Assembly (NCBI GenBank): GCA_040754075.1
Contig: JBFMDH010000003.1
Span: forward strand, 14,307 to 78,306
Length of the DNA: 64,000 bases
Direction of reading: 5' to 3'
Source: Acidobacteriota bacterium
GTDB lineage: Bacteria > Acidobacteriota > Blastocatellia > UBA7656
Every line of letters begins with the position of its first letter. Position 1 is the stretch's first letter. The notes below the pieces were generated by a model. The model saw only the letters and a list, made by a program, of their open reading frames with translations. It was not told where the DNA came from and searched no databases. The position numbers and the translations under genes are program-made. This document shows positions 29,813 to 52,462 of the stretch, piece by piece.

Positions 29813-30541
29813 ATGGCGCAAGCGAAAAATCAACTCATCAACTTGACTCCAAATCACACCATGCTTACGCGCATCAGAAATGCCGCGGCGCTTTTTGAAA
29901 ATGCCGCGCCAACGGAAATTTTAGAATGGGCATTCAAACAATACGGCGACAAACTGACGATTGCCACAGGATTCGGTGTCGAAGGCATGGCGCTCATCGA
30001 CATCGCCGTAAAAATCAATCCGCAATTAAATGTGTTTTTTCTCGACACCGATTTTCTTTTTCCCGAAACTTACGCGCTGCGCGAAATCATCGAGGAACGC
30101 TATCAAATAAAAATTCAAGCTTACAAAACTGAACTGACGCCCGAAACTCAGGAAGAAATTTATGGCGCAAAGCTCTGGGCGCGTGACCCGGATTTATGTT
30201 GCCGACTAAGAAAACTTGAACCGCTCAAACAAGCCCTGCGCGATAAACTTGCCTGGGTCACTGCCATTCGCCGCGACCAGACGGCGACGCGCGCCAGTGC
30301 CCGCGTTGTCGAATGGGACGCGCGCTGGCAGTTGGTCAAAATCAATCCGCTGGCGCGCTGGACGAAGCGCGATGTGTGGAGCTATGTCGTTAGAAACCAT
30401 GTCCCCTATAACCCTCTCCATAACGAAGGCTTCACCAGCATCGGCTGTACCCATTGCACGCGCTTCGTCCGCGTCGGCGAAGAGGAACGCGCCGGTCGCT
30501 GGGCAGGACACGCGAAAACCGAATGCGGATTGCACGCCTAA
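29813..30541 (+). CDS. cysH: Adenylylsulfate/phosphoadenylylsulfate reductase, thioredoxin-dependent
   Basis: PAPS-reductase fold with the C-terminal ECGLH motif and the CC...CxxC cysteines of [4Fe-4S] APS reductases (CCRLRK...CTHCT). Confidence 0.8.
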   Translation: MAQAKNQLINLTPNHTMLTRIRNAAALFENAAPTEILEWAFKQYGDKLTIATGFGVEGMALIDIAVKINPQLNVFFLDTDFLFPETYALREIIEERYQIKIQAYKTELTPETQEEIYGAKLWARDPDLCCRLRKLEPLKQALRDKLAWVTAIRRDQTATRASARVVEWDARWQLVKINPLARWTKRDVWSYVVRNHVPYNPLHNEGFTSIGCTHCTRFVRVGEEERAGRWAGHAKTECGLHA

Positions 30542-30581
30542 AAATCAACCACAACCAAATAAAGAAGAGGAGATTAAATAA

Positions 30582-31181
30582 ATGAGTTCACAAGGCAATG
30601 TCATCTGGCTTACCGGGCTTTCGGGCGCGGGGAAAACCACGCTCACACAGGTTCTCAGCAAACGCTTGCGCGCCGCAGGCAAACGAGTAGAAATACTCGA
30701 TGGCGATGAGGTGCGCGAAAATCTCAGTCGCGGTCTCGGGTTTTCAAAAGCTGACCGCGATACCAACATTCATCGCATCGGTTTCGTTGCGCGTCTGCTG
30801 GCGCGAAACGGCGTGACGGTCATTGTCCCGGCAATCTCGCCTTACCGGGAGACGCGCAGCGATGTGCGCGAGTTGATTGAAAGTGATGATGTCCGATTCG
30901 TTGAAATTTTTGTGCGCTGTGATTTACCGACCTTGATTGAACGCGACGTCAAAGGTCTCTACAAAAAAGCGCTTGCCGGTGAGGTGAAAAATTTTACAGG
31001 CATCAGCGACCCCTATGAAGAACCGCTCACCCCGGACATTTTAGTTGATACGGCGCGGCAAACCCTTGAACAAAGTGAAGTAATTATTATTGCGAGGCTT
31101 GGTGAACTCGGTTTGTTCAACGATTATGCCGCGTCCCTGAACCAGTTTGCTTTGACTGAAACGACAGCAGTTCAAGGCTAA
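30582..31181 (+). CDS. cysC: Adenylylsulfate (APS) kinase
   Basis: [15 protein letters not shown] P-loop and [27 protein letters not shown]-like motifs typical of APS kinase. Confidence 0.85.
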   Translation: [199 protein letters not shown]

Positions 31182-31300
31182 GGAAAAGTTCAAAGCGTTG
31201 CTTTCAGATTAAACTTTACACCACGATTCATTTTTCTCTGACGCAACGCTTTGAACCCGTTTTTCAAACGGCGCTTCACGCGCCTTATAGCAGGCAGTTT

Positions 31301-32914
31301 ATGAGCAATATCGAAGAGATTAAAAAACGCAAAGACGGGTTAGATGTGCTCGCGGATATTTACCGTTACGCGGCGACCCAGGAGACGATTTCGCCCGATG
31401 ATGAAGCGTTGTTTCGCTGGTATGGCATCTACACCCAACGACCCGCCGAAGATGGATTCTTTATGGTTCGCACACGCATACCGGGCGGCGATTTGACGCC
31501 AACGCAGTTGCGCGTATTAGCGGAACTTGCCGAACATCATGGTCGCGGGCTTGCCGATATTACGGTGCGTCAGAATATTCAATATCACTGGGTGCGGGTT
31601 GAGAGTTTGCCGATAATTCTTGATCGGTTGCGCGAAGTCGGGTTATCAACCACAGAAGCTTGCGGCGATTGTGTTCGCAATATTTTGAACTGTCCGGTGT
31701 CGGGCGTCGATAGCGAAGAACTCTATGACACCACGCCGCTCATCAAAGCGGTGAATGAATTTTTCATCGACAATAAAGATTTCTCAAACCTGCCGCGCAA
31801 ATTCAAAATCGCCATCACCGGCTGCGCCTACGCTTGCGTCTATCCCGAAATCAATGACATCGGCATTTTCGCAGTTCGTGATGAACAAGGCGAAGTCGCA
31901 TTTCGCGCCCGCGTTGGCGGCGGGTTGTCAACCACGCCGCGATTCTCGAAAGATTTGGGTGTGCTGGTCGCGCCCGATGAAGTGGTCGATTTATGCGCGG
32001 CGGTGGCGACGGTTTTTCGCGACGAAGGCAATCGCAAAAATCGCAAACGGGCGCGCTTGAAATTTTTAGTTGAAGAGTGGCAAATCCCGCGCTTTCGCGA
32101 AGCCGTTGAACGGGTGATGGGGCGAAAACTCCGTCGCGCCGCAACGCCTGAAGCCGAACCCATTCAAGAGCGCGACCGCTCGCATCTCGGCATCCACCGG
32201 CAACGCGAAAACGGCTTGTATTATGTGGGGATTTCGATACTCGGCGGCAGAACCAATGCTTGTGAACTCAGGCGGCTTGCCGATTTAGCTGAACAGTTTG
32301 GCAGCGGCAGAATCCGCACCACCAACACGCAAAATATTTTGCTGCTCGACATTCCCGAAAAAAATATATTGGCGCTCACACAGCAACTCGACCTCAGCGG
32401 TTTCGATTATCAACCGAACTGGGCGCGCAAAGGCATGATTGCCTGCACCGGCATTCAGTTTTGCAAACTGGCAATTGCCGAAACCAAAAATCGCGCGAAG
32501 CAATTGGATGAATACCTTTCCGAACATGTCGAACTCACGGACAGCGTGCGCATCAGCGTGACGGGTTGTCCGAACTCTTGCGGGCAACATCATATTTGCG
32601 ATGTTGGACTCGAAGGCTCGCTCGTGCAAATCGGCGGCGTGAAGAAAGAAGCTTTTCAAATCTTTTTAGGCGGCGGCGTCGGCAGACATGAATCCTTCGG
32701 CAGACGCATAGGGGTTCGCGTGCTTGCCGATGATTTGGGCGAATCGCTTGGACGGCTCTTTGCGCGTTATAACGATGAGCGCGTCGGGCAAGAAACCTTT
32801 CAGGAATTCTGTCTGCGTCACAGCGATGAAAAATTGACGGAATTTCTAGCGGCTTCACCCCCAACGATTAATCCATCGTGCGCCGCGATTGAATCCCAGC
32901 CTGCACCGGTTTGA
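31301..32914 (+). CDS. sir: Assimilatory sulfite reductase (ferredoxin-dependent, siroheme/[4Fe-4S] hemoprotein)
   Basis: Nitrite/sulfite reductase ferredoxin-like half-domains, with cluster/siroheme cysteines in TGCAYACVYPEINDIG and TGCPNSCGQHHICDVGL. Confidence 0.8.
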   Translation: MSNIEEIKKRKDGLDVLADIYRYAATQETISPDDEALFRWYGIYTQRPAEDGFFMVRTRIPGGDLTPTQLRVLAELAEHHGRGLADITVRQNIQYHWVRVESLPIILDRLREVGLSTTEACGDCVRNILNCPVSGVDSEELYDTTPLIKAVNEFFIDNKDFSNLPRKFKIAITGCAYACVYPEINDIGIFAVRDEQGEVAFRARVGGGLSTTPRFSKDLGVLVAPDEVVDLCAAVATVFRDEGNRKNRKRARLKFLVEEWQIPRFREAVERVMGRKLRRAATPEAEPIQERDRSHLGIHRQRENGLYYVGISILGGRTNACELRRLADLAEQFGSGRIRTTNTQNILLLDIPEKNILALTQQLDLSGFDYQPNWARKGMIACTGIQFCKLAIAETKNRAKQLDEYLSEHVELTDSVRISVTGCPNSCGQHHICDVGLEGSLVQIGGVKKEAFQIFLGGGVGRHESFGRRIGVRVLADDLGESLGRLFARYNDERVGQETFQEFCLRHSDEKLTEFLAASPPTINPSCAAIESQPAPV

Positions 32915-33124
32915 AAGTCTGAGGACAGGTATTTCTATAAAGCTGCCATCGCGGTTTACCCGCTTGGGTTTGGTAGATGGGGGCACCAGAAACTTGCCAG
33001 TCGCTGATGGTTTAATGCGGACTTTCGCACAGCCGCCTTAACTTTTTGGGTAACATTTCCCAACTGAGGATGAAATTGTGAAGCGATGACGCGGCTTACC
33101 TGGTTTCAAGAGGTTGCTGATAAC

Positions 33125-33150
33125 CCGGCGGGCTTTTTGTAAACTGCGGG
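33125..33150 (+). terminator. Possible terminator of the cys operon
   Basis: AACCCGGCGGGCTTTTT, a GC-rich palindrome followed by a T-run. Weak. Confidence 0.3.
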
Positions 33151-33515
33151 TTGATGGTGAAGCGACTGCGGACATCGGCATTCTCGATAAATTCAATGAC
33201 CGGGGGATTCGATTAACCTACCGATTTTTTTTGATTTTCTCCGGCTTTCTTCATTGCAAAACCAACTTGCCCGGTTATTTGTCGCCCGCTGGCGCGCAAA
33301 AAAGACTGCGCTTATTGACCATCCGTTATCAAAATCCACGATAGTTTGCAGGGTTTTCCGGCAGGCAAATTTAAATTTTTGGCGGCATATCACTTGCTTA
33401 AATTTTTAGGCACGTTTTCAACACCTCTCAAACAATCCATCGTCTGTGAGTCAAGCGGGGCAATCACTCATGAAACGACTGTTGACCTGGCGATGAGACT
33501 AAGGAGAATCCGCAA

Positions 33516-34985
33516 ATGCAAGCGCAACCGTCAATTCTCACTTGCCCGAATGGACATCGCAATCCACCGATTGAAGGCGGGGTGTTTTGTCCGACCTGCG
33601 GAGGTCAACTGGTAGCGGTTGCGCCGCCAGACGCTACTGCTCGACCACAGCCGCCTTTCAATACTCCCCCGCAATTTTATAACCGGACGCCGAATTTTCC
33701 GCCGCCAATGAATTATCAACCGCCGCAATGGTATGCGCCGAATATGGCGGGACAGAATTTTGCTCAAGGGTTTTGTCAGTTTTGTGGCGGCAATGGCGCA
33801 AGACTCGCTCCCCATCTGATGGTCTGTCCCGATTGTCATTGGTTGCGCCCGCTCGTTCCCGGATATGCTTTGGATTGTTCGGTATTTCAATGGGCACAGG
33901 ATGGTGCGGCAATGGCGAAGCTGCGCTCACTCAGCCCGCTCAACGCCGCCGCCCGCACGGTTTCCGATAAAGTCGGGCGGCGTTGGATAGAGACAACTTT
34001 CAATGCCATTCAATTGAGCGATAAACAATTGCCGGCGGTTTATCAGCAAGCGGTGCTGGCGGCGCGGATTCTCGCACTCCCGTTTATGCCGGAAGTTTAC
34101 GTTTCCGGCGACCGGATGTGGGATGCTGCAACCTATGGCAGCGACACCAGCGCCTTCGTAATCATCGGCACAGCTCTGGTCACCAATTTTCAAGGAAAAG
34201 ATTTATTGTTTATGCTGGCGCGCGAAATGGGACATTGCCGCGCCGGTCACGCGCTCTGGAAAACTGTCATCCGATTTTTACTCGGTGAACAAAGTCCCAG
34301 ACGCGGCATGATGGCTGGCGGCTTGCTGGCGAATTTGAATCTTTCCCATCTGGTCGAAGGAGCCGTCGAATTGCCGTTACTGGCTTGGGCGCGACAATCC
34401 GAAATTACTGCCGACCGCGCCGGATTGCTTGCAGTTATGGACGAAGAAATTGCCCGCCGCGTGCTGTTGACCTGGTATCTCAAATCGGCTCAGTTGATTC
34501 GCCAAATCAATATGGAGGCGTGGCTGGAACAGGAAGCCGATAGCGATGACCAGATGACGAAATTGTCCGAGATGACTTCATCATCTACGCCATACATTAC
34601 GCGCCGCCTCAAACTGTTGACCCAATTTGCTCGCAGCCCCGAAATGGAAAACTGGCGCGCAAGAATGCGTGGCATCATTGCGCCGCCGCCTGTGCCGCGT
34701 GCACAGCGTCCGCCGTTAATTGCGCAAGGCAACCAACCTGCGCCTGCAAGTCCGGCAGTTGCGCCGCCACAAACCAAACCCGCAGATGATGCGCTTCGCA
34801 TCATCTGTTCAGCCTGTCGCACACCGATGCGCATTCCGCGCAGCGCGCTTGCAGGCAAAGCCGCTTTGAATGTGCGTTGTCCGAACGCTCAATGCGCCAA
34901 AATCGTTACCTTGAAAAAGCAACCTGCGCCGCCTCAACCTGTGGCGACTCCAAATAAGGAAGCCGAATCGGAAGTTGATTCATAA
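33516..34985 (+). CDS. Zinc-ribbon-flanked M48-like (HtpX/BepA-fold) protein with a degenerate HExxH (R-E-M-G-H)
   Basis: AGGAGA SD. N-terminal double zinc ribbon (CPNGH...CPTCGG; CQFCGG...CPDCHW). Central region ...FMLAREMGHCRAGH... plus downstream SEITADRAGL matches the M48 pattern AHExxHxxxxH...ExxADxxG, except the first His is Arg. C-terminal zinc ribbon CSACRT...CPNAQC, preceded by Pro-rich linkers. Confidence 0.5.
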   Translation: MQAQPSILTCPNGHRNPPIEGGVFCPTCGGQLVAVAPPDATARPQPPFNTPPQFYNRTPNFPPPMNYQPPQWYAPNMAGQNFAQGFCQFCGGNGARLAPHLMVCPDCHWLRPLVPGYALDCSVFQWAQDGAAMAKLRSLSPLNAAARTVSDKVGRRWIETTFNAIQLSDKQLPAVYQQAVLAARILALPFMPEVYVSGDRMWDAATYGSDTSAFVIIGTALVTNFQGKDLLFMLAREMGHCRAGHALWKTVIRFLLGEQSPRRGMMAGGLLANLNLSHLVEGAVELPLLAWARQSEITADRAGLLAVMDEEIARRVLLTWYLKSAQLIRQINMEAWLEQEADSDDQMTKLSEMTSSSTPYITRRLKLLTQFARSPEMENWRARMRGIIAPPPVPRAQRPPLIAQGNQPAPASPAVAPPQTKPADDALRIICSACRTPMRIPRSALAGKAALNVRCPNAQCAKIVTLKKQPAPPQPVATPNKEAESEVDS

Positions 34986-35011
34986 GGCTTTGCAGAAAAG
35001 GAGAATTTACC

Positions 35012-36169
35012 ATGAACTCTGATGAAACCATCGTCGTTACAGAAATCCCTGTAACGGATGCCAATCCGGCGGTCATTGAAATCATCACCGCTAAGCCCGA
35101 CACTCAGGCAACAGTAACCAACGAAACTGACACACCGGCGATTGTCGAGGCGATTCAGGATGTGATTGAAGCGATTACCGGTGATGATGCCAACCCGGAT
35201 ATAGCCGGTTATGTCATCGTTGATGCGGAGAGCGCCGAACCGGCGATTGCCGCTTTGTCAGTCGAAGAAGCGGAAAGTGAAAATCTGACCGCCGAAGAGG
35301 CTGGCGAAGTGGCGGAAATCTCTGTTGATAGCGCCGCAGAGGTCGCGCCTGTCATTGACCAGGCGTCAACGATGGATGCCGGACTTTACGTTGCCGGTGA
35401 AGCGACCGATACCATAGAACCAATAAATACCGATGAAGTGATTGCACAACCTGAATCGGTCAACGAAAGCGCCACGGAACCGACGGAAGCAGACCTTGAA
35501 ACTGCTGAAGCCCAGGCTCATGCGCAAGCGGCTGACGAAGCCCAAGCCCGCGCCGATGCAGACATCGAAGCAGGCGATTATCGCGCCGCGGCAGAAGAAC
35601 GCGAGATTGCCGAAAACGAAGCGTGGGCGGCGGTCGATAGCGATATGTTGCATGGCGAAAGTTCCTATCGTCTGGAAAGCGCCGCAGACGAACAAGCCGA
35701 AGGTAAGTATTGGGAGCAGGAGGAAGCCAAACACGCTGAGGCGGGCGATTATGAAGCCGCCCGCGAGGATGCTTCACGCGCCGCAGATGCCATCGGCTGG
35801 GCGGATTATTACGCCGGCGGTGATGACCACAGTGGACAGGCGCGCGCCGAGTACGAAAAAGAAGACTGGGCAGTTTGGGAACAAAATCAGGCGGATGCTG
35901 ATCGACAGGAAGCGGTCAATTACGCCGAGAGCGGCAATTTTGAAAACGCCGCGCAATATGCAGAATATGCCGCAGAGCATCAGGAACAGGCAGATACCTA
36001 TGGACAAGAGGGCGAACATGACGCCGTCGGTGCAGTGTATGATCCGTCTTCGGATGTCGCAGAAGATACGCCCGTCGATGCGCCCGATACTTCTTATGAC
36101 ACCTATGATACGACGACCACCGATTACGCAAGCGATACGTCTTATGATGCGGGCGAATCCGATTATTGA
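35012..36169 (+). CDS. Hyperacidic, low-complexity, predicted intrinsically disordered protein (385 aa)
   Basis: AGGAGA SD, starting 27 nt after the preceding stop. Extreme D/E/A/T/Y bias with no hydrophobic segment and a Tyr-rich C-terminal tail DTSYDTYDTTTTDYASDTSYDAGESDY. The in-phase opposite-frame ORFs here are artefacts of the GAN-rich composition. Confidence 0.5.
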   Translation: MNSDETIVVTEIPVTDANPAVIEIITAKPDTQATVTNETDTPAIVEAIQDVIEAITGDDANPDIAGYVIVDAESAEPAIAALSVEEAESENLTAEEAGEVAEISVDSAAEVAPVIDQASTMDAGLYVAGEATDTIEPINTDEVIAQPESVNESATEPTEADLETAEAQAHAQAADEAQARADADIEAGDYRAAAEEREIAENEAWAAVDSDMLHGESSYRLESAADEQAEGKYWEQEEAKHAEAGDYEAAREDASRAADAIGWADYYAGGDDHSGQARAEYEKEDWAVWEQNQADADRQEAVNYAESGNFENAAQYAEYAAEHQEQADTYGQEGEHDAVGAVYDPSSDVAEDTPVDAPDTSYDTYDTTTTDYASDTSYDAGESDY

Positions 36170-36324
36170 TTCAACCCGAAAAGCTGCGTAGACGAGAAAA
36201 TGATTGGCAACGCGAATCGTTGACGATTGCTTTTACTCAGCGCCCGTTGAGCAAGCGGTCTTTTCAACGACGCGGTCATAGACCGCTGGTTCAACCTCAG
36301 TCAATGATTTTGGCAAGCGGCTCT

Positions 36325-36448: not shown

Positions 36449-37561
36449 TTAAGCATCGATGCGCCGCAAATCTTCGATGATTTTTTTATTAGCTTTGGGA
36501 AACGCATAATTTTCGAGGTCGGCGAATTTGACCCAGCGAATTTTTTGACTGGTCTTGGGACGGGCTTTGCCGCTCACATACCGACAATGAAAAGCATGCA
36601 GGGTGATGCGAAAGTGAGTGAATGAATGTTGCACCACCGAAAAGCGTTCGCCGACTTCGACGACAATGCCGGTCTCTTCCAGCATCTCGCGGGCGCAACA
36701 AGCTTCGAGCCGTTCTTCGGGTTTGAGTTTACCGCCGGGAAATTCCCAGAGATTGCCAAGCAAGCCTTCCGACGGGCGCAAAGCGATCAGGACTTTGCCA
36801 TCTTTATGTACGACACCGATGACGATTTGATGATGCGGGATGGCGGCTTTCTTTGATTTGCGCGGAAATTCAGCGAGACGATTTTCATGATAGGCGCGAC
36901 AATACGGACGAATCGGGCAACCTTCACACGCCGGATTTTTCGGGCGGCAAATCAATGCGCCGAGTTCCATCATCGCTTCATTAAACTTTCCGGCGCGACC
37001 CATCGGAACCAGGGAATCGGCGATGCGCTGAAATTCGCGTTTGGCGGCGGGTTTGCGAATGTCCGATTCGATGACCAGCACTCTTGAGAGCACGCGCATC
37101 ACATTGCCATCAACCGCCGCATAGTCTTGGTTGAATGCGAGACTCGCGACGCTTGCGGCGGTGTACACGCCAAACCCTTTCAACTCTAAAAGCGCCTCGC
37201 GTGAAGCGGGCAACTCACTGTGATGTTTTTCGACAATCACGCGCGCCGCGTCGCGCAGGTTGCGGGCGCGCGCATAGTAACCAAGCCCTTCCCAGGCTTT
37301 CATCAACACCGTGTCTTTAGCTCGCGCCAAAGACTTAACATCAGGAAAAGTTTTTAAGAAGCGTTCGTAAAACGGGATGACGGTGGCGACTTGCGTTTGT
37401 TGCAACATCACTTCGGCAATCCATATTTGGTAGGGGTCGCGTGTCTGTCGCCACGGCAAATCGCGTTTATGTTTTTCAAACCACGCGAGCAACGCTTCGA
37501 TGAATTTTTTCTTGTTGAATTTTTTCGGTGGCGGCAGCGTCGTGCTCATTTTCCTTTTCAC
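36449..37561 (-). CDS. mutY: A/G-specific adenine DNA glycosylase with C-terminal NUDIX-like domain
   Basis: HhH-GPD motif (LPGVGRYTA-like FGVYTAASVASL), [4Fe-4S] cysteines CxxxxxxCxxC...C (CRPKNPACEGCPIRPYC), and C-terminal MutT-like residues. Confidence 0.85.
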   Translation of the reverse strand: MKRKMSTTLPPPKKFNKKKFIEALLAWFEKHKRDLPWRQTRDPYQIWIAEVMLQQTQVATVIPFYERFLKTFPDVKSLARAKDTVLMKAWEGLGYYARARNLRDAARVIVEKHHSELPASREALLELKGFGVYTAASVASLAFNQDYAAVDGNVMRVLSRVLVIESDIRKPAAKREFQRIADSLVPMGRAGKFNEAMMELGALICRPKNPACEGCPIRPYCRAYHENRLAEFPRKSKKAAIPHHQIVIGVVHKDGKVLIALRPSEGLLGNLWEFPGGKLKPEERLEACCAREMLEETGIVVEVGERFSVVQHSFTHFRITLHAFHCRYVSGKARPKTSQKIRWVKFADLENYAFPKANKKIIEDLRRIDA

Positions 37562-37705
37562 TTCTTAGGATGTGATGAAACTGGAGTTTAGCGAACCCGC
37601 GCCGGGCAAACAAATGTGTCCGTATCGCCGGTGGCAGCAGGCAGGTTTATTGGCAAACAAACCCACCCGCTACCGCAAGCTATATGAACATTGTAGTATC
37701 TTCCT

Positions 37706-38530
37706 ATGCCTGAACTTCCTGAAGTTGAAACCGTGCGCCGCTCTTTGGAGTTGTTGTTGCCTGCAAGAACCATTGTTGAGATTTCGGTGCGTGAGCCGCG
37801 ATTGCGCGTGACGGTTGACGAAGACCGATTGAATGAATTGATTTTGCAACGCCAGGTCGAACGCCTCACGCGGCGCGCAAAATATCTCATCGTGCATTTC
37901 ACCGAGGGCAGTTGTTTGATTTTGCATTTAGGGATGACCGGACAACTGCTTATCCTTTCGGCGCACGAGCCGCTCGATAAACATGACCATGTCATTTTAA
38001 CTCTCGATAATGGATTGCATCTGCGCTTTCGCGACCCGCGCCGATTCGGTTGTGTCATCGCCATTGAACAGAGCCAACTTGATGAACACGCGACGCTCAG
38101 ACAACTCGGCGTCGAGCCGCTTTTGGAAAATTTCACTCCTGAATATTTATTCCGCCGTTCGCGTAAATCGAAAAAGCCGGTGAAGAATTTCATTATGGAT
38201 CAGCAAATCGTTGTCGGAGTGGGCAACATTTACGCCAGCGAAGCGCTGTTTCTGGCGGGCATTCATCCATTGCGCGAGGCCGGACGCATCACGCTCAAGC
38301 GTTATGAAAAACTGCACGCGGCAATTATTCAAGTTTTACAGGAAGCCATCGCGCTTGGCGGCACGACGATAGATGATTTTCGCAACAGCGACGGAACGAG
38401 CGGTTACTTTCAACAAAAACTGCGCGTTTATGGGCGCAAAGGCGAACCTTGTCCCAGTTGTCAAACCCCGATTCGCTCGCAAGTGCTTGCCGGTCGTTCG
38501 ACCTTCTTTTGCCCTAAGTGTCAGCGGTGA
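37706..38530 (+). CDS. mutM: Formamidopyrimidine-DNA glycosylase
   Basis: N-terminal MPELPEVETVRR (catalytic Pro2/Glu3), H2TH domain, and C-terminal zinc finger CPSCQTPI...CPKCQ. Confidence 0.9.
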   Translation: MPELPEVETVRRSLELLLPARTIVEISVREPRLRVTVDEDRLNELILQRQVERLTRRAKYLIVHFTEGSCLILHLGMTGQLLILSAHEPLDKHDHVILTLDNGLHLRFRDPRRFGCVIAIEQSQLDEHATLRQLGVEPLLENFTPEYLFRRSRKSKKPVKNFIMDQQIVVGVGNIYASEALFLAGIHPLREAGRITLKRYEKLHAAIIQVLQEAIALGGTTIDDFRNSDGTSGYFQQKLRVYGRKGEPCPSCQTPIRSQVLAGRSTFFCPKCQR

Positions 38531-38810
38531 GTATTTCTATTTTCGCACCGTTGAAATGCGAATAAGGCTGCAAAATTCTGTTTGAAACATTCAGCCACCC
38601 TTGCTTGTTTCATAATGCTTTGTGGTTGCTCGGCATTAGACCGCAGAGATAGTAATGCCAGGATAAGTTATTGAGAGAAAAACGCTTCAAGCGAATCGCT
38701 TATCACTTGATAAAAACAATCTATTTGCCCGCTCAATAAAACAGTGTTATTCATTCAACGACCAAAACTTCCGGGCAGGCTGTGTCAATCCTTTCACAAA
38801 CGGTGAATGA

Positions 38811-40364
38811 ATGGCTGAGAGAATAAAAGTATTCGATACGACGCTACGTGATGGTGAACAATCGCCGGGTTGCAGTATGAATCTCGAAGAAAAGCTGCGT
38901 CTTGCACACCAACTCGACACCCTTGGCGTGGATGTTATCGAAGCCGGATTCCCAATTGCCTCAGACGATGATTTTGCGGCAGTTCGCGAAATTGCGCGAC
39001 AGGTTCGCCGTCCGATTATTGCAGCCCTGGCGCGCGCCACTCGCGAAGACATCGAACGCGCCTGGGAAGCTTTACAGGAAGCCGCCCGCCCACGCATTCA
39101 CACATTCCTTGCCACTTCCGATATTCATCTGACCGCTAAATTAAAAATCACCCGCGAAGAATGTCTGGCGCGCATTGCCGAATCGGTCGCCTTAGCCAAA
39201 AGTTTTACCGATGACGTCGAATTCTCAACCGAAGATGCAACCCGCACCGACCTCGACTTTTTAGTTGAAGCCGTCAGCGCCGCCGTCAAAGCCGGTGCCA
39301 CAACCGTGAATATCCCGGACACCGTTGGGTACACCATTCCACGCGAATACGCGCATATCATCAAGACGCTTCGCGAACGTGTCGAAGGCATCGAAAAAGT
39401 CACCATCTCTGTGCATTGTCATAATGATTTGGGAATGGCAGTTGCCAATTCGCTCGCGGCTATCGAAGCCGGAGCCAGACAAATCGAATGCACCATCAAT
39501 GGCATAGGTGAACGCGCCGGTAACGCTTCACTGGAAGAATTAGCGATGGCGCTCAATGTTCGCAAAGATTTGCTCGCCTATGAGACCGGCATTAACACGA
39601 CGGAAATTTATCGCAGCAGTCAGATGTTATCGAACATCACGGGTATTCCGGTGCAACCCAATAAAGCCATTGTCGGACGCAATGCTTTTGCGCACGAAGC
39701 CGGAATTCATCAACACGGGGTCATCGCCGATAAGTTGACTTATGAAATCATGAAGCCTGAAACCGTTGGCGTAAAACAAAGCGTCCTGGTGTTAGGCAAA
39801 CATTCCGGGCGTCACGCTTTGCAAAAACGTTATGAAGAGATGGGCTATGTGTTGACCCGAATTGAACTCGATAAAGCCTACAAACTCTTCACTATGCTTG
39901 CCGACCAGAAGAAAGATATTTACGACGAAGACCTGGTCGTCATTCTGCAAGATGGTCTGCGCGAAATTCCCGAAACCTTTAAACTGCGAAATGTTGAAGC
40001 GCTCGCCGGAACCACCAAAGATTCGTGGGCAACTGTGACCCTCGAACGCGATGAACAGGCGATGTCACGCAGCGCACACGCCGGAGGTCCGGTGGCTGCG
40101 GCTTACGCGGCAATTGATTTTCTTACGGGAACAAATCCCACACTGATTGATTACGAAGTGCGCTCAGTAACCGGCGGAGCCGATGCCGTGGGCGAAGTTT
40201 TTACGCACATTGAAATTGATGAAAAAACCTTCACGGGTCGCGCTGCTTCCACAGATGTTGTTGAAGCCAGCGCCCGCGCTTATTTGCATGCCATCAACAA
40301 AGCTCTGCACGCGCGCAGTTTGAATGCGCCTAAGAAAAAGAGCTTTGCAGGAGCAGCGGATTAA
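38811..40364 (+). CDS. leuA: 2-isopropylmalate synthase (or closely related citramalate synthase)
   Basis: [16 protein letters not shown] and [21 protein letters not shown] motifs of the HMGL-like DRE-TIM fold, with a C-terminal LeuA dimerisation/regulatory domain. 517 aa. Confidence 0.8.
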
Positions 40365-47839: not shown

Positions 47840-50800
47840 ATGAAAGACGATGTCCCTTTTAGGTTGCTCTATGATTCTCAATTTGAACACGACGCTTGCG
47901 GTGTAGGGTTTGTCGCGGATATTGCAGGAAATCCGAGTCATGCGCTGTTGGAAATTGCATTGCAGGCGCTCAATCATCTCGTGCATCGCGGCGCGATTGA
48001 TGCCGATGGCAAAACCGGCGATGGCGCAGGTGTGCTCACCCAACTGCCGAAAAAATTCTTTCAGAAAAAGATTGAAAAATTATGCGGCGCGCGACTTCAA
48101 GCGGAAGATATTGCCGTCGGCATGTTTTTTCTGCCGCAGGATGAAACCATTCGTGTCCGCTCGAAAAGCGCCATCAAACGCGCGCTCAAACAATACAACC
48201 TGGAATTTTTAGCCTGGCGCAATGTGCCCGTAGATAAAAACGCGCTGGGCACAAAAGCTGCTGAAACTTTGCCGCGCATCGAACAGGCTTTGATTGCGCG
48301 CGGCGACTGTCCGCTTACGGAATTTGAGTCAACCCTCTACCTGGTGCGCAAAGAGATTGAACGCCAGACCGCCAACCTCAAAGGCTTTTACACCGTTTCA
48401 CTGTCAAATCAAACCATCGTCTATAAAGGTTTGTTGGTTGCCTCGCAACTCAAAGCCTTTTACAAAGATTTAAGCGACGGGGATTTCGCTTCGGCAATCG
48501 TCGTCTTTCATCAACGCTATTCAACCAACACGTTTCCCAACTGGTCGCTCGCTCAACCGTTTCGCATGATTGCTCACAACGGCGAAATCAATACCATTGC
48601 CGGAAATCGCAACTGGATGCGAGCGCGTGAAGCCACCTTGAATTCACCTTTCTGGCAAGAACGCATCGAAAAACTCAAACCGGTCATCTGGTCTGCGGGG
48701 TCGGATTCGGCAAGTTTAGATAACACCGCCGAGTTATTGATTAAGAGCGGGCGCGATGTGCTGCAGTCGATGTTGATGTTGATGCCTGAAGCCTTTGAAA
48801 ACGCTCAGGGGATGAATGCCGATTTGCGCGGTTTTTATGATTATTCGGCGTGTTTGATGGAACCCTGGGACGGTCCGGCGGCGGTCGCCTTCAGCGATGG
48901 CAAAATCGTCGGCGCGCGATTAGACCGCAATGGACTGAGACCTGCGCGTTACGCCGTCACCAGTGATGGCTTGATGATTCTGACTTCCGAAGCCGGAGCT
49001 ATTGAACTCGCGCCGGAAACCATCGTCGAAAAAGGCAGACTTGCGCCCGGCGAAATGATTGCCGTGGATACGACGCGCGGCGTGGTCTTGGGCGATGAAG
49101 AAATCAAACGCGGGTGCGCGGCGCGCAAGCCCTATGCCGATTGGGTCAGAGACGGCTTTGTCGCCTGTCCCAGCATTGCCGATAACAACTGCACCGATGA
49201 TTTCAATGACCTCAGTTTAACCGAGCGCATGAAGGCTTATGGTTACACCCTTGAAGATGTGCAGCGCATCATCGACCCGATGTTTGAAGAAGGCAAAGAG
49301 CCTGTGGGTTCGATGGGCGACGATACGCCGCTTGCGGTTTTATCTGCGAAACCGCGAGTGCTTTATAACTATTTCAAACAGCGGTTCGCGCAGGTTACCA
49401 ATCCGGCGATTGACCCGATTCGCGAACGCGGCGTGATGTCTTTGGAAACCCTGCTTGGCGCAAGAGGCAGTTTGCTTGAAGAGCGCGCGGAGTTTGCCAA
49501 ACTGGTTAAATTGCATAGCCCGGTGATTACCAACAACGAGCTTGAATGGTTAAAAAACCTCGATAAACAGGGCTTTTCGGCGATAACTTTGAAAACGCTT
49601 TTTGAAGTAAAAAATGATCATGCCTGTTCAGAGATGGTTTCAGACCGCCAGGCAAGCGGTCAAAGATCGCTTCTCAACTCTAAGCCTGAGTTATCCGGTT
49701 CTTGCCTGGAAAACGCGCTTGATGAGTTATGCGCACAGGCAAGCGAAGCCGCCGACAAAGGCTACGCGATTTTAATTTTAAGCGATAAAGGCATAGATGA
49801 ATCACACGCGCCGATACCGATGTTGCTTGCCGTGTCGGCTGTGCATCATCACTTGATTCGCGAAGGCAAACGCCTGCGTGTCAGTCTGATTGCCGAAACT
49901 GCGGACGCCCGCGAAGACCATCACTTCGCCTGTTTGATGGGTTACGGAGCCAGCGCGGTGAATCCTTATCTGGCATTTGAAATCGTTGCCAACGAAGTTC
50001 AGCATCGCGGCATGAGCACACCGGCGGCGCTCAAAAATTACAAGACCGCGGTTGAAAACGGCTTGTTGAAAATCTTGGCGAAAATGGGCATCGCGACGAT
50101 TGCCAGTTACAGCGGCGCGCAGATTTTTGAAGCCATCGGCGTCGGCGACCGGTTGATTGAAAAATATTTTACCGGCACACCTTCACGCATCGGCGGCATC
50201 ACGCTTCGCGAAATCGCCGGAGACGGGTTGCAATTTCACGCCTCGGCATTTGCCGTAAAAGATAAACAGCAACTCGATGATGCAGGCTATTATCGCTATC
50301 GCGCGGGCGGCGAATTTCACACCTTCAATCCGCAGGTCTTTCGATTGTTGCATAAATTCGCGAGAGCCGGTGATGAAGAAGCCTTCAAAAAATTCGCTGC
50401 CCAAATCGATACGCGCGCGCCGGCGGCGCTTCGCGACTTGCTGGAATTTCGCAAAGGCGAAAGCATCGCGCTCGATGAAATCGAAGCCGCAGAAAATATC
50501 GTGCGGCGGTTTTCGATTTCCGCCATGTCGCTTGGCGCATTATCGCCCGAAGCCCATGAAACTTTAGCGATTGCCATGAATCGCCTTGGCGCAAAGAGCA
50601 ACAGCGGCGAAGGCGGCGAATCGCCCGCGCGTTATCGTCCGCGCGAAGATGGCGACTCGGCAAACAGCCGCATCAAGCAAGTGGCTTCGGCAAGGTTTGG
50701 CGTGACGCCCGAATATCTGGTGAGCGCCGATGAACTCGAAATTAAAATCGCGCAGGGCGCAAAACCCGGCGAAGGCGGACAATTGCCCGGTCATAAAGTG

Positions 50801-52462
50801 ACTGCCGAAATTGCCGCCATTCGCCATTCAGTGCCGGGCGTGACTTTGATTTCGCCGCCGCCGCATCACGACATTTATTCCATCGAAGACCTCGCGCAAC
50901 TGATTTACGATTTGCGTCGCATCAATCCGCGCGCCCGCATCGCTGTGAAGTTGGTTTCGGAAGCAGGCATCGGCACGATTGCCGCAGGTGTGACGAAAGC
51001 TTTTGCTGATGTCATTCACATTGCCGGGCACGATGGCGGCACGGGCGCGTCGCCTCTCAGTTCGATTAAAAACGCCGGTTCGCCCTGGGAACTCGGACTT
51101 GCGGAAACCCAGCAGACGCTGGTGCTCAATGATTTGCGTTCGCGTGTGCGCCTGAGAGTTGATGGCGGCTTCAAATCGGCGCGTGACGTAGTGATGGCGG
51201 CGATGTTTGGCGCAGAAGAATTCGGCTTTGCGACCTCGGCGCTTGTGGCGCTTGGTTGCGTGATGGCGCGGCAATGTCATTTGAATACCTGTCCGGTTGG
51301 CATCGCAACCCAGGAACAAAACTTGCGCGAACGTTACGCAGGCAAACCCGAAATGGTGATTAATTATTTCCTTTCGCTTGCCGAAGACGTGCGCGTTTTG
51401 CTTGCCGAACTCGGATTTCGTTCGCTTGATGACATCGTCGGGCGCGCCGATTTGCTGGTTGAAAAAACCGATGTCAGGCTGCCGAAAGGGGTGAAATTGG
51501 ATTTGCGCGCGCTGGTTGCTAATGCCGATGAATCCAATACGCGCCCGCGCCGATTCATTGCGGCGCACAAACGTCACGAAGAGGATTCATTGGAAGAGCG
51601 CATGATGTTACAGGCATCGCGCGCCATCTTTACAGGCAAACCGATTCAACTGTCTTACAAAATTAAAAACACTGACCGCGCCGTGGGCGCGCGCCTCGCA
51701 GGAGAGATTGCCGGAATTTACGGCAATGCCGGCATGCAGGATGCGACCGTTGATATTATTTTGCGCGGCAGCGCCGGTCAGAGTTTCGGGGCGTTTTGTG
51801 CGTCGGGCATGAAACTGACAGTCATCGGCGAAGCCAATGATTATGTCGCCAAAGGTATGGGCGGCGGCGAAATCATCATTCGCCCACCGGCTGAAGCCTC
51901 TTTCGATTCATCGAAAAATGCCATCATCGGCAATACCGTGTTATATGGCGCAACCGGCGGAACCCTGTTCGTTGCGGGTCGCGCCGGTGAACGTTTCTGT
52001 GTTCGCAACAGTGGCGCAGATGCGGTGGTCGAAGGCGTTGGCGACCACGCTTGCGAATATATGACTGCCGGAACCGTCGTGGTGCTTGGCGAAGTGGGGC
52101 GCAATTTTGCAGCCGGGATGACCGGCGGCGTGGCGTATGTTCTGGACACGGATGAAACCTTTGAGCGGCGTTGCAATCAAGAGATGGTGACGCTCGAAGC
52201 GTTAAAGAGCGAAAGCGATGCGCAAGTGGTGCGCGCCCTCATTCAACGACATTTTGAACTCACCGGCAGTTTGAAATCTCGCGAAGTGTTGTGGAACTGG
52301 AAAAATTATCGCCGTCAATTTTGGAAAGTCATCACCCAGGGCGCAAAGTTAATCGAAGCGCAGAAAAAAACCGAGAGCAAAGGCGCCGCGGTTCAGGGCA
52401 GTCGCAGAGTTTTTGCTGCCGCCGAACGCTGGGTAAAAACCAGGCTTTTCCAAATTATCTGA
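47840..52462 (+). CDS. gltB: Glutamate synthase large subunit (GltB; length consistent with a ferredoxin-dependent type)
   Basis: N-terminal Ntn amidotransferase CGVGFV (Cys1 after Met removal), a central FMN/Fe-S domain, a synthase domain and a C-terminal GXGXG domain. 1540 aa. No adjacent gltD. Confidence 0.85.
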   Translation: MKDDVPFRLLYDSQFEHDACGVGFVADIAGNPSHALLEIALQALNHLVHRGAIDADGKTGDGAGVLTQLPKKFFQKKIEKLCGARLQAEDIAVGMFFLPQDETIRVRSKSAIKRALKQYNLEFLAWRNVPVDKNALGTKAAETLPRIEQALIARGDCPLTEFESTLYLVRKEIERQTANLKGFYTVSLSNQTIVYKGLLVASQLKAFYKDLSDGDFASAIVVFHQRYSTNTFPNWSLAQPFRMIAHNGEINTIAGNRNWMRAREATLNSPFWQERIEKLKPVIWSAGSDSASLDNTAELLIKSGRDVLQSMLMLMPEAFENAQGMNADLRGFYDYSACLMEPWDGPAAVAFSDGKIVGARLDRNGLRPARYAVTSDGLMILTSEAGAIELAPETIVEKGRLAPGEMIAVDTTRGVVLGDEEIKRGCAARKPYADWVRDGFVACPSIADNNCTDDFNDLSLTERMKAYGYTLEDVQRIIDPMFEEGKEPVGSMGDDTPLAVLSAKPRVLYNYFKQRFAQVTNPAIDPIRERGVMSLETLLGARGSLLEERAEFAKLVKLHSPVITNNELEWLKNLDKQGFSAITLKTLFEVKNDHACSEMVSDRQASGQRSLLNSKPELSGSCLENALDELCAQASEAADKGYAILILSDKGIDESHAPIPMLLAVSAVHHHLIREGKRLRVSLIAETADAREDHHFACLMGYGASAVNPYLAFEIVANEVQHRGMSTPAALKNYKTAVENGLLKILAKMGIATIASYSGAQIFEAIGVGDRLIEKYFTGTPSRIGGITLREIAGDGLQFHASAFAVKDKQQLDDAGYYRYRAGGEFHTFNPQVFRLLHKFARAGDEEAFKKFAAQIDTRAPAALRDLLEFRKGESIALDEIEAAENIVRRFSISAMSLGALSPEAHETLAIAMNRLGAKSNSGEGGESPARYRPREDGDSANSRIKQVASARFGVTPEYLVSADELEIKIAQGAKPGEGGQLPGHKVTAEIAAIRHSVPGVTLISPPPHHDIYSIEDLAQLIYDLRRINPRARIAVKLVSEAGIGTIAAGVTKAFADVIHIAGHDGGTGASPLSSIKNAGSPWELGLAETQQTLVLNDLRSRVRLRVDGGFKSARDVVMAAMFGAEEFGFATSALVALGCVMARQCHLNTCPVGIATQEQNLRERYAGKPEMVINYFLSLAEDVRVLLAELGFRSLDDIVGRADLLVEKTDVRLPKGVKLDLRALVANADESNTRPRRFIAAHKRHEEDSLEERMMLQASRAIFTGKPIQLSYKIKNTDRAVGARLAGEIAGIYGNAGMQDATVDIILRGSAGQSFGAFCASGMKLTVIGEANDYVAKGMGGGEIIIRPPAEASFDSSKNAIIGNTVLYGATGGTLFVAGRAGERFCVRNSGADAVVEGVGDHACEYMTAGTVVVLGEVGRNFAAGMTGGVAYVLDTDETFERRCNQEMVTLEALKSESDAQVVRALIQRHFELTGSLKSREVLWNWKNYRRQFWKVITQGAKLIEAQKKTESKGAAVQGSRRVFAAAERWVKTRLFQII

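What the first reader, a model, noticed from the sequence alone, without database searches (positions are those of the whole stretch)
33516..36169. Operon of a zinc-ribbon-flanked pseudo-M48 protein and a 385-aa hyperacidic disordered protein
The first gene has paired zinc ribbons at both termini. Its central M48-like domain has the HExxH first histidine replaced by Arg (AREMGHCRAGH) while retaining the downstream ExxADxxG element, suggesting a regulatory or binding role rather than an active protease. Twenty-seven nt later, with its own SD, starts a protein that is almost entirely D/E/A/T/Y with no hydrophobic segment and a Tyr/Asp tail. Possible roles include a nucleic-acid mimic, a polyanionic chaperone, or a metal/mineral-binding protein. 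This gene pairing is not something I recognise.
Basis: partly seen in the sequence, partly recalled or inferred. Interest (0 to 1): 0.55.

Follow-up and report, generated by a model that had tools for sequence, protein, structure and literature searches.

The report
Dead M48 protease with hyperacidic partner
Two adjacent genes encode a zinc-ribbon protein with a protease fold that has permanently lost a metal-binding histidine, and an extremely acidic helical-repeat protein; the pair is inherited together across several bacterial phyla, has never been studied, and its function is unknown.

Summary
GeneA (33516-34985) is an M48-fold protein with R-E-x-x-H in place of H-E-x-x-H. GeneB (35012-36169) has pI 4.05 and net charge -89. 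The H->R change is not a sequencing variant: all 211 homologs examined carry Arg. A further 13 have lost the catalytic Glu and 41 the third zinc ligand. The nearest outgroup M48s (Thermus, Tsukamurella, Nonomuraea) keep HExxH and have no acidic neighbour. The pairing is conserved: 77 of 81 loci have the acidic gene directly downstream, and 44 of those overlap geneA's stop codon. Distant geneB relatives in Asticcacaulis, Terricaulis and other Proteobacteria also follow a pseudo-M48 gene. Two corrections apply. GeneB is only about half disordered: residues ~155-350 form three long TPR-like helical hairpins (pLDDT 94-98). GeneA has two N-terminal zinc ribbons and one C-terminal ribbon. Most other genomes add a third gene upstream, a zinc-ribbon membrane protein (DUF4190 or SHOCT), which this window lacks. 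My best reading is a non-proteolytic complex near the membrane, in which the remodelled protease groove acts as a binding site. That mechanism is inferred, not shown. GeneB has no family annotation, and I found no publication on the module.

The parts
33502..33506 (+). Shine-Dalgarno (AGGAG) of geneA, 9 nt before the ATG
   Evidence: Read directly from the sequence.
33516..34985 (+). geneA: 489-aa pseudo-M48 protein with three zinc ribbons (pI 9.1)
33537..33605 (+). Zinc ribbon 1 (C10, H14, C25, C28)
   Evidence: Ligands are 90-94% conserved in 48 orthologs. Weak DZR and Zn_ribbon Pfam hits. Replaced or joined by a GYF_2 domain in some orthologs.
33636..33767 (+). P/Q/Y-rich disordered linker (residues 41-84)
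   Evidence: pLDDT 41-47. Column identity 0.21-0.33.
33774..33836 (+). Zinc ribbon 2 (C87, C90, C104, C107), packed against the M48 core
   Evidence: All four Cys are invariant. pLDDT 92-95, continuous with the core. Present in proteobacterial homologs and absent from the HExxH outgroup.
33843..34685 (+). M48-like gluzincin core (residues ~110-390)
34221..34250 (+). Remodelled metal-binding motif R236-E-M-G-H240-C-R-A-G-H245 (the former HExxHxxxGH)
   Evidence: R236, E237, G239, H240, R242, G244 and H245 are invariant in 48 orthologs. Arg is at position 1 in 211 of 211 homologs. Aligned to the HExxH of real M48s. This is the most conserved segment of the protein, with column identity 0.94-0.96.
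34386..34424 (+). W-A-R-Q-S-E296-I-T-A-D300-R-A-G, the third-ligand (ExxAD) motif
   Evidence: Column identity 0.98. E296 aligns with the third zinc ligand of M48s. This Glu is replaced by A, Q, H or D in 41 of 211 homologs, mainly proteobacterial.
34791..34916 (+). C-terminal zinc ribbon 3 (C431, C434, C455, C460), basic
   Evidence: Cys are invariant. pLDDT 92-96. Weak Zn_ribbon_4/5 hits. Fold hit to the ZitP zinc finger 2nb9, prob 0.54. Duplicated in proteobacterial homologs.
35000..35003 (+). Shine-Dalgarno (GGAG) of geneB, 8 nt before the ATG
   Evidence: Read directly from the sequence.
35012..36169 (+). geneB: 385-aa hyperacidic protein (pI 4.05, net charge -89)
   Evidence: ORF. Composition. 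No Pfam, NCBIfam or PADLOC family. 100% identical to an NCBI hypothetical protein, AB1757_04110.
35012..35179 (+). geneB N-terminal conserved short elements (residues 1-56): a beta-hairpin-like 'TE..DG..E.T' motif and a short helix
   Evidence: Conserved in the alignments. AF2 gives strands 6-11 and 22-27 and helix 44-56, but at low pLDDT. Proposed as a docking motif; this is inference.
35180..35473 (+). geneB acidic disordered linker (residues 57-154)
   Evidence: pLDDT 37-52. Variable in length and sequence but always acidic.
35474..36061 (+). geneB folded core (residues 155-350): three long helical hairpins, each with a G-(D/N)-(Y/F)-x-x-A turn
   Evidence: pLDDT 94-98, with helices 159-186/190-206, 218-243/247-268 and 275-306/310-334. 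Core length is 193-209 aa in 45 homologs. 27 columns are invariant. Only 130 cluster representatives among 1.84 billion match at E<=1e-3.
36062..36166 (+). geneB Asp/Tyr/Thr-rich tail (residues 351-385)
   Evidence: pLDDT 44-67. Orthologs carry [YFV]-D-[ST] or PVDD units here, and the last residue is not conserved.
36244..36268 (+). Weak terminator-like hairpin with a T-run, ~75 nt after the geneB stop
   Evidence: Consensus scan only, and the number of such sites is not above the shuffle expectation. An isrD Rfam hit here is below threshold.

Best explanation
SHOWN. GeneA and geneB form a conserved, co-inherited and probably co-translated gene pair. GeneA has an M48 metalloprotease fold, but the first zinc-ligand His is fixed as Arg across the whole clade. 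The catalytic Glu and the third ligand are dispensable in some lineages. GeneA also carries three structural zinc ribbons. GeneB is a polyanion with a compact three-hairpin helical core between acidic disordered arms.

INFERRED. GeneA does not cleave peptides. Its former active-site cleft is the most conserved part of the protein. I propose it has been repurposed as a binding site for an extended peptide or ligand, most plausibly a conserved linear element of geneB. Candidates are geneB's N-terminal hairpin motif or the G(D/E)HGG..YDPSS(E/D)V stretch that follows its last helix. The basic zinc ribbons and linkers would add electrostatic or specific contacts.

The two proteins would then form a stable cytoplasmic complex, with geneA as adaptor and geneB as a polyanionic scaffold or sequestering surface. 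In most genomes the adjacent Zn-ribbon membrane protein (DUF4190 or SHOCT) would tether this complex to the inner face of the membrane. In this window's genome that anchor gene is not adjacent.
For: Pseudo-enzyme status:
- Arg at HExxH position 1 in 211 of 211 homologs; 13 have RQxxH; the third ligand is lost in 41.
- Asticcacaulis has E->Q and Terricaulis E->A at the third ligand.
- The HExxH-bearing outgroup lacks the zinc ribbons and the acidic neighbour.
- The remodelled site has the highest conservation in the protein, 0.94-0.98 column identity.

Coupling:
- 77 of 81 loci have the acidic ORF immediately downstream on the same strand.
- 44 of 77 overlap the geneA stop codon, 33 of them by exactly 11 nt.
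- Distant geneB relatives also sit after a pseudo-M48 gene: L081, Terricaulis (hhalign 96.9%, E=1.4e-10) and Asticcacaulis (99.3%, E=1.8e-20).

GeneB is a real folded protein.

Membrane link: a Zn-ribbon plus DUF4190 gene lies directly upstream in 53 of 81 loci, and a Zn-ribbon/TM/SHOCT gene in L081, L082 and L084 (TM/SHOCT without a ribbon in L085).

Charge: geneA is net positive in 91% of homologs (median +8), against geneB's median of -90.

Neither protein has a signal peptide or TM segment.
Against: No physical interaction was tested, because multimer modelling was not available. No natural geneA-geneB fusion exists among 226 homologs. The M48 core itself is roughly neutral (median net charge 0), so an 'Arg-lined acid-binding groove' is not supported by bulk charge. 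The window's own genome lacks the membrane-anchor gene next to the pair. One locus, L058, has the acidic gene on the opposite strand and without the helical core. What the complex ultimately does is unknown. Keeping E237, H240 and E296 in most members could mean some residual chemistry.
Confidence: 0.5

Rival explanations
1. GeneA is still an active hydrolase that uses a different metal site or a metal-independent mechanism (for example H240, E296 and another residue such as C241 or H245, with R236 stabilising the transition state). GeneB is its substrate, pro-domain-like inhibitor or activator.
For: E237, H240, H245 and E296 are invariant among the 48 acidobacterial orthologs, and C241 is 90% conserved. 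The site is under the strongest purifying selection in the protein. M48 enzymes are often kept inactive by plugs and partner domains (abstracts of the BepA papers listed).
Against: 13 of 211 homologs have Gln in place of the catalytic Glu, and 41 of 211 have lost the third ligand, yet these lineages keep the operon and the acidic partner. C241 is Ala or Val in several orthologs. No homolog retains the canonical site.
Confidence: 0.1
2. GeneB is the functional component: a high-capacity binder or buffer of cations (Ca2+, Fe3+, other metals, polyamines) or a template for a mineral or granule. GeneA is its chaperone, loader or regulator.
Confidence: 0.15
3. The module is a cell-pole or sub-membrane organising hub comparable to PopZ with ZitP. 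GeneB self-assembles through its helical core and presents acidic disordered arms with N-terminal recognition motifs. The zinc ribbons of geneA and of the membrane protein dock onto it.
For: GeneB's layout is a short conserved N-terminal motif, an acidic disordered linker and a C-terminal helical domain. The geneA C-terminal ribbon gives weak Zn_ribbon_4/5 hits and a fold hit to the ZitP zinc finger, prob 0.54. A membrane protein with an N-terminal ribbon is encoded in the operon in most genomes. The ZitP zinc finger is reported to act with PopZ in polarisation (PMC5182065, title and abstract seen). The similarity of geneB's layout to PopZ rests on my own knowledge.
Against: No sequence similarity to PopZ: no Pfam hit at E<=1. 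The Caulobacterales that carry this module presumably already have PopZ (my own knowledge, not tested). Self-assembly and localisation are untested. The ribbon similarity is weak.
Confidence: 0.15
4. GeneB is a nucleic-acid mimic or decoy that acts in phage defence or anti-defence, or in control of nucleoid proteins. GeneA is a zinc-ribbon nucleic-acid binder.
For: The extreme negative charge resembles DNA-mimic proteins (my own knowledge). Zinc ribbons can bind nucleic acids (PMC3581485). In Asticcacaulis, phage-like genes lie ~3 kb downstream (Peptidase_M78, aGPT-Pplase3).
Against: No PADLOC match for either protein. No copy in 50,697 phage records, and only distant canonical M48s on plasmids. 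In the window the pair sits among what look like housekeeping genes. The vertical-looking distribution across Acidobacteriota is unlike that of a mobile defence island.
Confidence: 0.05

Closest known systems
Soluble canonical M48 metallopeptidases of the Thermus / Tsukamurella / Nonomuraea type (WP_202819499, WP_068742246)
   Same: Closest sequence relatives outside the clade, at 25-30% identity (BLASTP E=3e-23). They share the ...GH-E-x-x-H-x-x-x-G-H-A...W-x-R-x-x-E-x-x-x-D-R-x-G signature and are soluble, with no TM helices.
   Different: They keep HExxH and have no zinc ribbons. Of the two with annotated neighbours (Thermus, Tsukamurella), neither has an acidic gene downstream. None has been characterised, as far as the tools show.
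BepA (YfgC), the E. coli periplasmic M48 protease with a fused TPR domain
   Different: BepA is periplasmic, has an intact HExxH, and carries its TPR domain in the same polypeptide. Here the protein is cytoplasmic, the motif is RExxH, the helical-repeat partner is a separate hyperacidic protein with ~58-aa hairpins and no TPR Pfam match, and zinc ribbons have been added.
HtpX / Ste24 (ZMPSTE24) membrane M48 proteases
   Same: Homologous catalytic-domain fold. The motif helices align residue for residue.
   Different: Those are integral membrane zinc enzymes. GeneA has no TM segment, lacks the first zinc ligand, and scores far below the NCBIfam HtpX cut-offs (17.7 bits against 369).
PopZ with ZitP (Caulobacter polar hub and its zinc-finger membrane adaptor)
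   Same: An acidic, partly disordered protein with a C-terminal helical domain, operating with a membrane protein that carries an N-terminal zinc finger. Weak fold hit of the geneA ribbon to the ZitP finger (PMC5182065).
   Different: No detectable sequence homology. ZitP and PopZ have no protease-fold component. This is a functional analogy only and is untested.
Pseudoproteases in general (for example iRhoms) as a concept
   Same: A protease fold whose catalytic machinery is lost while the substrate-binding region stays under selection, used for binding or regulation (my own knowledge).
   Different: No M48-family bacterial pseudoprotease with a dedicated partner turned up in the searchable literature.

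Membership tests
Peptidase family M48 (Pfam PF01435 / MEROPS M48) | Sequence match to the family profile above the curated threshold | tested here: met
   42.9 bits against a cut-off of 20.3, E=6.2e-11. All 48 aligned orthologs match.
Peptidase family M48 (Pfam PF01435 / MEROPS M48) | Gluzincin fold most similar to solved M48 structures | tested here: met
Peptidase family M48 (Pfam PF01435 / MEROPS M48) | HExxH zinc-binding and catalytic motif | tested here: not met
   RExxH in the window and in 211 of 211 homologs; 13 have RQxxH. GeneA is therefore a non-peptidase homologue, not a functional member.
Peptidase family M48 (Pfam PF01435 / MEROPS M48) | Third zinc ligand Glu in the downstream ExxAD motif | tested here: met
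   E296 is present in the window and invariant in the acidobacterial orthologs. It is lost in 41 of 211 homologs across the wider clade.
Peptidase family M48 (Pfam PF01435 / MEROPS M48) | Zinc-dependent peptidase activity | not testable with these tools
   Needs purified protein, metal analysis and activity assays.
HtpX (NCBIfam equivalogs) | Score above the equivalog cut-off; N-terminal TM helices | tested here: not met
   Best score is 17.7 bits against a cut-off of 369. No hydrophobic segment: maximum KD19 is 1.43.
TPR repeat proteins (for geneB) | Match to TPR-type profiles; 34-residue helix-turn-helix repeats | tested here: not met
   No Pfam hit at E<=1 for geneB, and none at E<=0.01 for 45 homologs. 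The hairpins are ~50-60 residues long. Only the G-(D/N)-(Y/F)-x-x-A turn motif resembles TPR. One homolog is labelled 'TPR repeat protein' by JGI.
BepA-like M48-TPR chaperone-proteases | Periplasmic location, intact HExxH, TPR domain fused to the protease | tested here: not met
   No signal peptide-like segment, RExxH, and the helical-repeat protein is a separate gene.
PopZ-type polar hub | Homology to PopZ; self-assembly; polar localisation | tested here: inconclusive
   No Pfam hit of any kind for geneB, so homology is not supported. The architecture is analogous. Assembly and localisation cannot be tested here.
Known anti-phage defence systems (PADLOC) | Match to a defence-system protein model | tested here: not met
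   No PADLOC family at E<=1 for either protein. No phage-borne copies.
Three-gene module 'Zn-ribbon membrane protein + pseudo-M48 + acidic protein' (defined in this work) | Upstream same-strand gene for a Zn-ribbon plus DUF4190 or SHOCT membrane protein | tested here: not met
   Present in 53 of 81 loci and in L081, L082 and L084 (L085 has a TM/SHOCT gene without a ribbon). Absent from the window: 32915-33515 is non-coding and tblastn finds no copy anywhere in the 64 kb. The window holds the two-gene core only.

The most novel reading that the evidence does not exclude
The pair is the core of an unrecognised membrane-proximal system that spans several phyla. An ex-protease has become a dedicated reader or adaptor for a family of hyperacidic helical-repeat proteins. 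Those proteins would form a polyanionic scaffold (a PopZ-like hub or condensate, or a cation-sequestering layer) at the inner face of the membrane, tethered there by zinc-ribbon membrane proteins. This would be a new class of bacterial cell-organising or ion-buffering machinery with no characterised homolog.
Probability: 0.25. Interest if true: 0.8.

Novelty: new variant of a known kind. Interest (0 to 1): 0.55.

Why it matters
If the reading is right, this is a clean bacterial example of a protease fold turned into a non-catalytic binding module. One metal ligand is fixed as Arg in every member, while the other catalytic residues have been lost in separate subsets of the family. GeneA is locked to a partner family that no database describes.

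The module is not a curiosity of a single MAG. The two geneA searches returned 1,107 and 651 protein clusters. It occurs in at least 217 species-level genomes, mainly soil Acidobacteriota, a group that is hard to culture. It also occurs in culturable Caulobacterales such as Asticcacaulis biprosthecium C19, which may make it open to experiment.

It also offers a natural test of how much of a gluzincin active site can be removed while the cleft remains functional. It may show what hyperacidic, half-disordered proteins do in bacteria. The limitation is that the function is unknown and every mechanistic statement beyond 'non-catalytic and co-inherited' is inference.

Tried and rejected
- A PSP-linked 'metallopeptidase + PspAB + SHOCT-like' system described in PMC11237479 was checked. 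It is a membrane-associated peptidase with different partners, and nothing ties it to this module.
- Literature searches for M48 pseudoproteases, DUF4190, SHOCT with zinc ribbon, and M48 with acidic protein found nothing relevant.
- PADLOC, phage and plasmid searches were negative for a mobile or defence origin.
- The promoter/terminator scan and Rfam scans of the flanks gave nothing above chance.
- No natural geneA-geneB fusions were found.
- The idea that the M48 core is basic enough to bind the polyanion by bulk charge was tested and not supported (core median net charge 0).
- The afdb50 fold library was unavailable.
- The first metagenome scan, using a 25-sequence alignment, failed for lack of conserved stretches. 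A six-sequence subset worked but returned only one locus.
That alignment was therefore re-done against real sequences.
Full report
**1. What is in the sequence**

Each has a good Shine-Dalgarno sequence: AGGAG 9 nt before the geneA start and GGAG 8 nt before the geneB start. The gap between the genes is 26 nt. Both proteins are 100% identical to entries from a 395-kb contig of an Acidobacteriota MAG. Those entries are annotated 'M48 family metallopeptidase' and 'hypothetical protein AB1757_04110'.

GeneA has pI 9.1. GeneB has pI 4.05, net charge -89, 26% D+E and 3% K+R. Neither has a hydrophobic segment that could span a membrane. GeneB is the only one of 61 window ORFs of at least 140 aa that meets my acidic criterion.

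**2. GeneA is an M48-fold protein that cannot be a canonical M48 enzyme**

- **The substitution.** A profile alignment to E. coli HtpX places AREMGH on AHEISH and ARQSEITAD on SRHREFHAD. BLASTP against Tsukamurella WP_068742246 (E=3e-23) aligns FMLAREMGHCRAGHA with FVIGHELGHALSGHA, and WARQSEITADRAG with WQRKSELSGDRAG. R236 therefore occupies the position of the first zinc-ligand histidine. The catalytic Glu (E237), the second His (H240) and the third-ligand Glu (E296) are present.
- **A fixed trait of the clade.** In 48 aligned orthologs R236, E237, G239, H240, R242, G244, H245, E296 and D300 are invariant. Across the 211 homologs that my pattern could read, position 1 is Arg in all 211. Thirteen have also lost the catalytic Glu (RQxxH). 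The third ligand is E in 165, A in 32, Q in 7, H in 1, D in 1 and unread in 5. Asticcacaulis biprosthecium has ARQSQITAD and Terricaulis has QRHSAITAD. These lineages keep the operon after losing further catalytic residues, which argues that catalysis is not the selected function.
- **The site is still under selection.** The two motif segments are the most conserved parts of the protein, with mean column identity 0.94-0.98. The site is being kept for something.
- **Outgroup.** The nearest relatives outside the clade are soluble M48s on Thermus, Tsukamurella and Nonomuraea replicons, at 25-30% identity. They keep HExxH and the Glu and have no zinc ribbons. The two whose neighbours were inspected (Thermus, Tsukamurella) have no acidic neighbour.

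**3. Zinc ribbons**

There are three, not two pairs:
- C10/H14/C25/C28, with ligands 90-94% conserved.
- C87/C90/C104/C107, invariant. It is modelled as packed on the M48 core and is present in proteobacterial homologs too.
- C431/C434/C455/C460, invariant and basic.

Between the ribbons lie low-confidence P/Q/Y-rich linkers. Some orthologs carry a GYF_2 domain at the N-terminus. The C-terminal ribbon gives weak Zn_ribbon_4/5 hits and a weak fold match to the ZitP zinc finger. The family's net positive charge (median +8, positive in 91%) sits in the ribbons and linkers. The M48 core is about neutral.

**4. GeneB is a real protein family and only half disordered**

- **Conserved core.** Aligning the downstream acidic ORFs shows a well-conserved core at window residues ~155-350. 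The N-terminal arm and the C-terminal tail vary in sequence but stay acidic.
- **Fixed length.** The core is 193-209 aa in 45 homologs, with almost no indels. It is 44-61% identical to the window protein and has 27 invariant columns.
- **Predicted structure.** AlphaFold2 models the core at pLDDT 94-98 as three long helical hairpins (159-186/190-206, 218-243/247-268, 275-306/310-334). Each turns at a G-(D/N)-(Y/F)-x-x-A motif. Residues 1-154 and 351-385 are low-confidence.
- **TPR-like turn, not a TPR.** The turn motif resembles a TPR, and JGI labels one homolog that way. But no TPR profile matches, and the hairpins are about 58 residues long, not 34.
- **A narrow family.** An exhaustive profile search of 1.84 billion cluster representatives with the core alone finds 130 proteins at E<=1e-3 and 66 at E<=1e-30.

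**5. The pairing is conserved, tight and old**

A scan of one genome per species (185,579 species) found 217 genomes encoding a geneA relative. The 80 best loci are mostly Blastocatellia and Pyrinomonadaceae, Chloracidobacterium, and Terriglobia such as Terracidiphilus and Granulicella.

In 77 of 81 loci (window included) an acidic ORF follows geneA directly on the same strand. These ORFs have D+E 0.16-0.31, K+R 0-0.05 and lengths of 142-494 aa. Three of the four exceptions simply run off the contig end. The fourth, L058, has a convergent acidic ORF that lacks the helical core. In 44 of the 77 the geneB start overlaps the end of geneA, 33 times by exactly 11 nt, which suggests translational coupling.

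The weak tail of the core profile search contained a separate subfamily of ~180-225 aa acidic proteins. The one metagenomic locus recovered for it, L081, again shows a Zn-ribbon membrane protein, then a pseudo-M48 (REMGHCAAGH) and then the acidic protein 36 nt downstream.

Searching with that pseudo-M48 found 651 more clusters. They include Asticcacaulis biprosthecium C19, Asticcacaulis sp. YBE204, Terricaulis, Hyphomonadaceae, Pseudomonadales, Gemmatimonadaceae and Tectomicrobia. In the three contexts I inspected, the pseudo-M48 is followed by one to three hyperacidic proteins. One of these is a geneB-family member: Terricaulis against the core profile gives 96.9%, E=1.4e-10, and Asticcacaulis against the short subfamily gives 99.3%, E=1.8e-20.

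**6. A frequent third gene, absent from this window**

Clustering all flanking ORFs showed one more conserved neighbour. It is a ~150-aa protein encoded directly upstream on the same strand (median gap 17 nt) in 53 of 81 loci. It has an N-terminal zinc ribbon, a Q/P-rich linker and a two-TM DUF4190 domain (Pfam E=5e-13). In 11 loci a DUF2752 membrane protein lies just upstream of geneA as well (in the five I read, between the DUF4190 gene and geneA).

In the proteobacterial loci that position holds a TM/SHOCT protein, which in L081, L082 and L084 begins with a zinc ribbon (the Terricaulis L085 protein has no ribbon). The window has 600 bp of non-coding DNA there and no copy elsewhere in the 64 kb. 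No other neighbour is conserved across the set.

**7. How it most likely works**

The following are shown:
- GeneA has lost a canonical catalytic site.
- The remodelled cleft is under strong purifying selection.
- GeneA and geneB are co-inherited and often translationally coupled.
- GeneB has a folded core between polyanionic disordered arms.
- Both proteins lack export signals.
- A membrane protein with a cytoplasmic zinc ribbon is usually encoded in the same operon.

The following is inferred. GeneA acts as a non-catalytic adaptor, and its cleft binds an extended peptide. The natural candidates are conserved linear elements of geneB: the N-terminal 'TITETAPDGTETxIEIT'-type hairpin, or the 'G(D/E)HGG..YDPSS(E/D)V' stretch after the last helix. 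The basic ribbons would add contacts, and the membrane protein would tether the complex. What the polyanionic partner then does is open: scaffold or hub, cation or polyamine buffer, or decoy for basic proteins. I give the overall model 0.5.

Rivals:
- **Residual catalysis with an altered metal site (0.1).** This is weakened by the RQxxH variants and by the lineages that lost the third ligand.
- **GeneB as a metal or cation binder, with geneA as helper (0.15).**
- **A PopZ/ZitP-like hub (0.15).** This is compatible with the main model.
- **DNA mimic or defence (0.05).** This is weakened by the negative PADLOC, phage and plasmid searches.

**8. Comparison with known systems**

By homology, geneA belongs to the M48 superfamily as a non-peptidase homologue. 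It passes the profile and fold tests and fails the HExxH test. It is not HtpX: 17.7 bits against a cut-off of 369, and no TM helices.

The closest architectural parallel is BepA, an M48 domain working with a TPR domain. But BepA is periplasmic, catalytically intact and a single polypeptide.

The closest functional analogy for the acidic partner plus zinc-ribbon proteins is PopZ with ZitP (PMC5182065), without any detectable homology.

None of six literature searches turned up a paper on this module, on M48 pseudoproteases in bacteria, or on the function of DUF4190.

**9. Verdict**

The 'disordered' label and the specific functional guesses are not established.

I rate this a new variant of a known kind: a pseudo-enzyme clade of M48, with an undescribed partner family and operon. 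There is a real but unproven chance that the module as a whole is a new kind of system. Interest is 0.55. The module is widespread, cleanly defined and may be open to experiment in cultured Asticcacaulis, but its function is unknown and it does not bear on a recognised open question.

Noticed in passing
window 32915-33515: A 600-bp stretch with no convincing gene sits where most orthologous loci encode the Zn-ribbon/DUF4190 (or SHOCT) membrane protein. tblastn with 64 such proteins finds no copy anywhere in the window. The only matches are to geneA's own N-terminal ribbon and P/Q linker, which resemble the membrane protein's N-terminus.
   Followed up: partly
geneA C-terminus (window 34950-34982) and 226 homologs: After the last zinc ribbon the geneA family ends in a conserved short acidic motif. 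The last residue is D/E in 68%, position -2 is D/S, and positions -5 to -3 hold M/L/Y/F (for example EANMSADE, EAAMSFDD, RNLNYDNE; the window has EAESEVDS). GeneB tails are built from similar [YFV]-D-[ST] units. This could be a shared docking motif or degron, but it is unexplained.
   Followed up: partly
L058 7587-8174 (minus strand): This is the one informative locus without a same-strand acidic partner. It has a convergent 195-aa acidic ORF (D+E 0.31) whose N-terminus resembles the geneB N-terminal motif (EVTLVDAGADGTVEAVIVDEG), but it lacks the helical core.
   Followed up: partly
L082 (Asticcacaulis biprosthecium GL883077.1 904333-915769); L081; L084; L085: The proteobacterial versions of the operon are larger. 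They hold up to three consecutive hyperacidic proteins after the pseudo-M48. In L081 and L082 there is also a Peptidase_C39_2-like gene (in L081 with a lipoprotein-like N-terminus) and a P/Q-rich lipoprotein, which hints at a complex spanning the envelope. In L082, phage-like genes (Peptidase_M78, aGPT-Pplase3/ADDT, thymidylate synthase) lie ~3 kb downstream.
   Followed up: partly
L078, L079 (bins labelled Planctomycetaceae / Pirellulaceae); also bins labelled Chthonomonadaceae, Capsulimonadaceae, Heliobacteriaceae: Orthologs of the acidobacterial type turn up in MAGs assigned to other phyla. L078 and L079 carry RQLGH, so the catalytic Glu is lost. I did not resolve whether these reflect horizontal transfer or mis-binning.
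   Followed up: no
several geneA orthologs (e.g. P0043, P0047, P0068, P0071, P0073): A GYF_2 domain, which binds proline-rich sequences, occurs in some orthologs. The operon's membrane protein and geneA itself both have P/Q-rich linkers. A ZnR plus GYF combination is described for the Myxococcus gliding protein GltJ (PMC11135422, abstract only).
   Followed up: no
window 35442-36191 (+) and 35366-35777 (-): Long K/R-rich or otherwise odd ORFs overlap geneB in other frames. They are shadow ORFs produced by the GA-rich Asp/Glu/Ala codons of geneB. The 34-36 kb bin has the highest AT skew (0.15) in the window and near-highest GC (0.55).
   Followed up: yes
window 29813-32914 and 36449-40364: By eye, the flanking genes look like housekeeping genes: PAPS/APS reductase-like, APS kinase-like and sulfite reductase-like upstream, then MutY-like (minus strand), Fpg/MutM-like and 2-isopropylmalate synthase-like downstream. 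I did not run these against family libraries. None is conserved next to the pair in other genomes.
   Followed up: no
whole window: There is no tRNA gene and no Rfam family above gathering threshold in the entire 64 kb. A 1,540-aa ORF at 47840-52462 was not examined.
   Followed up: no
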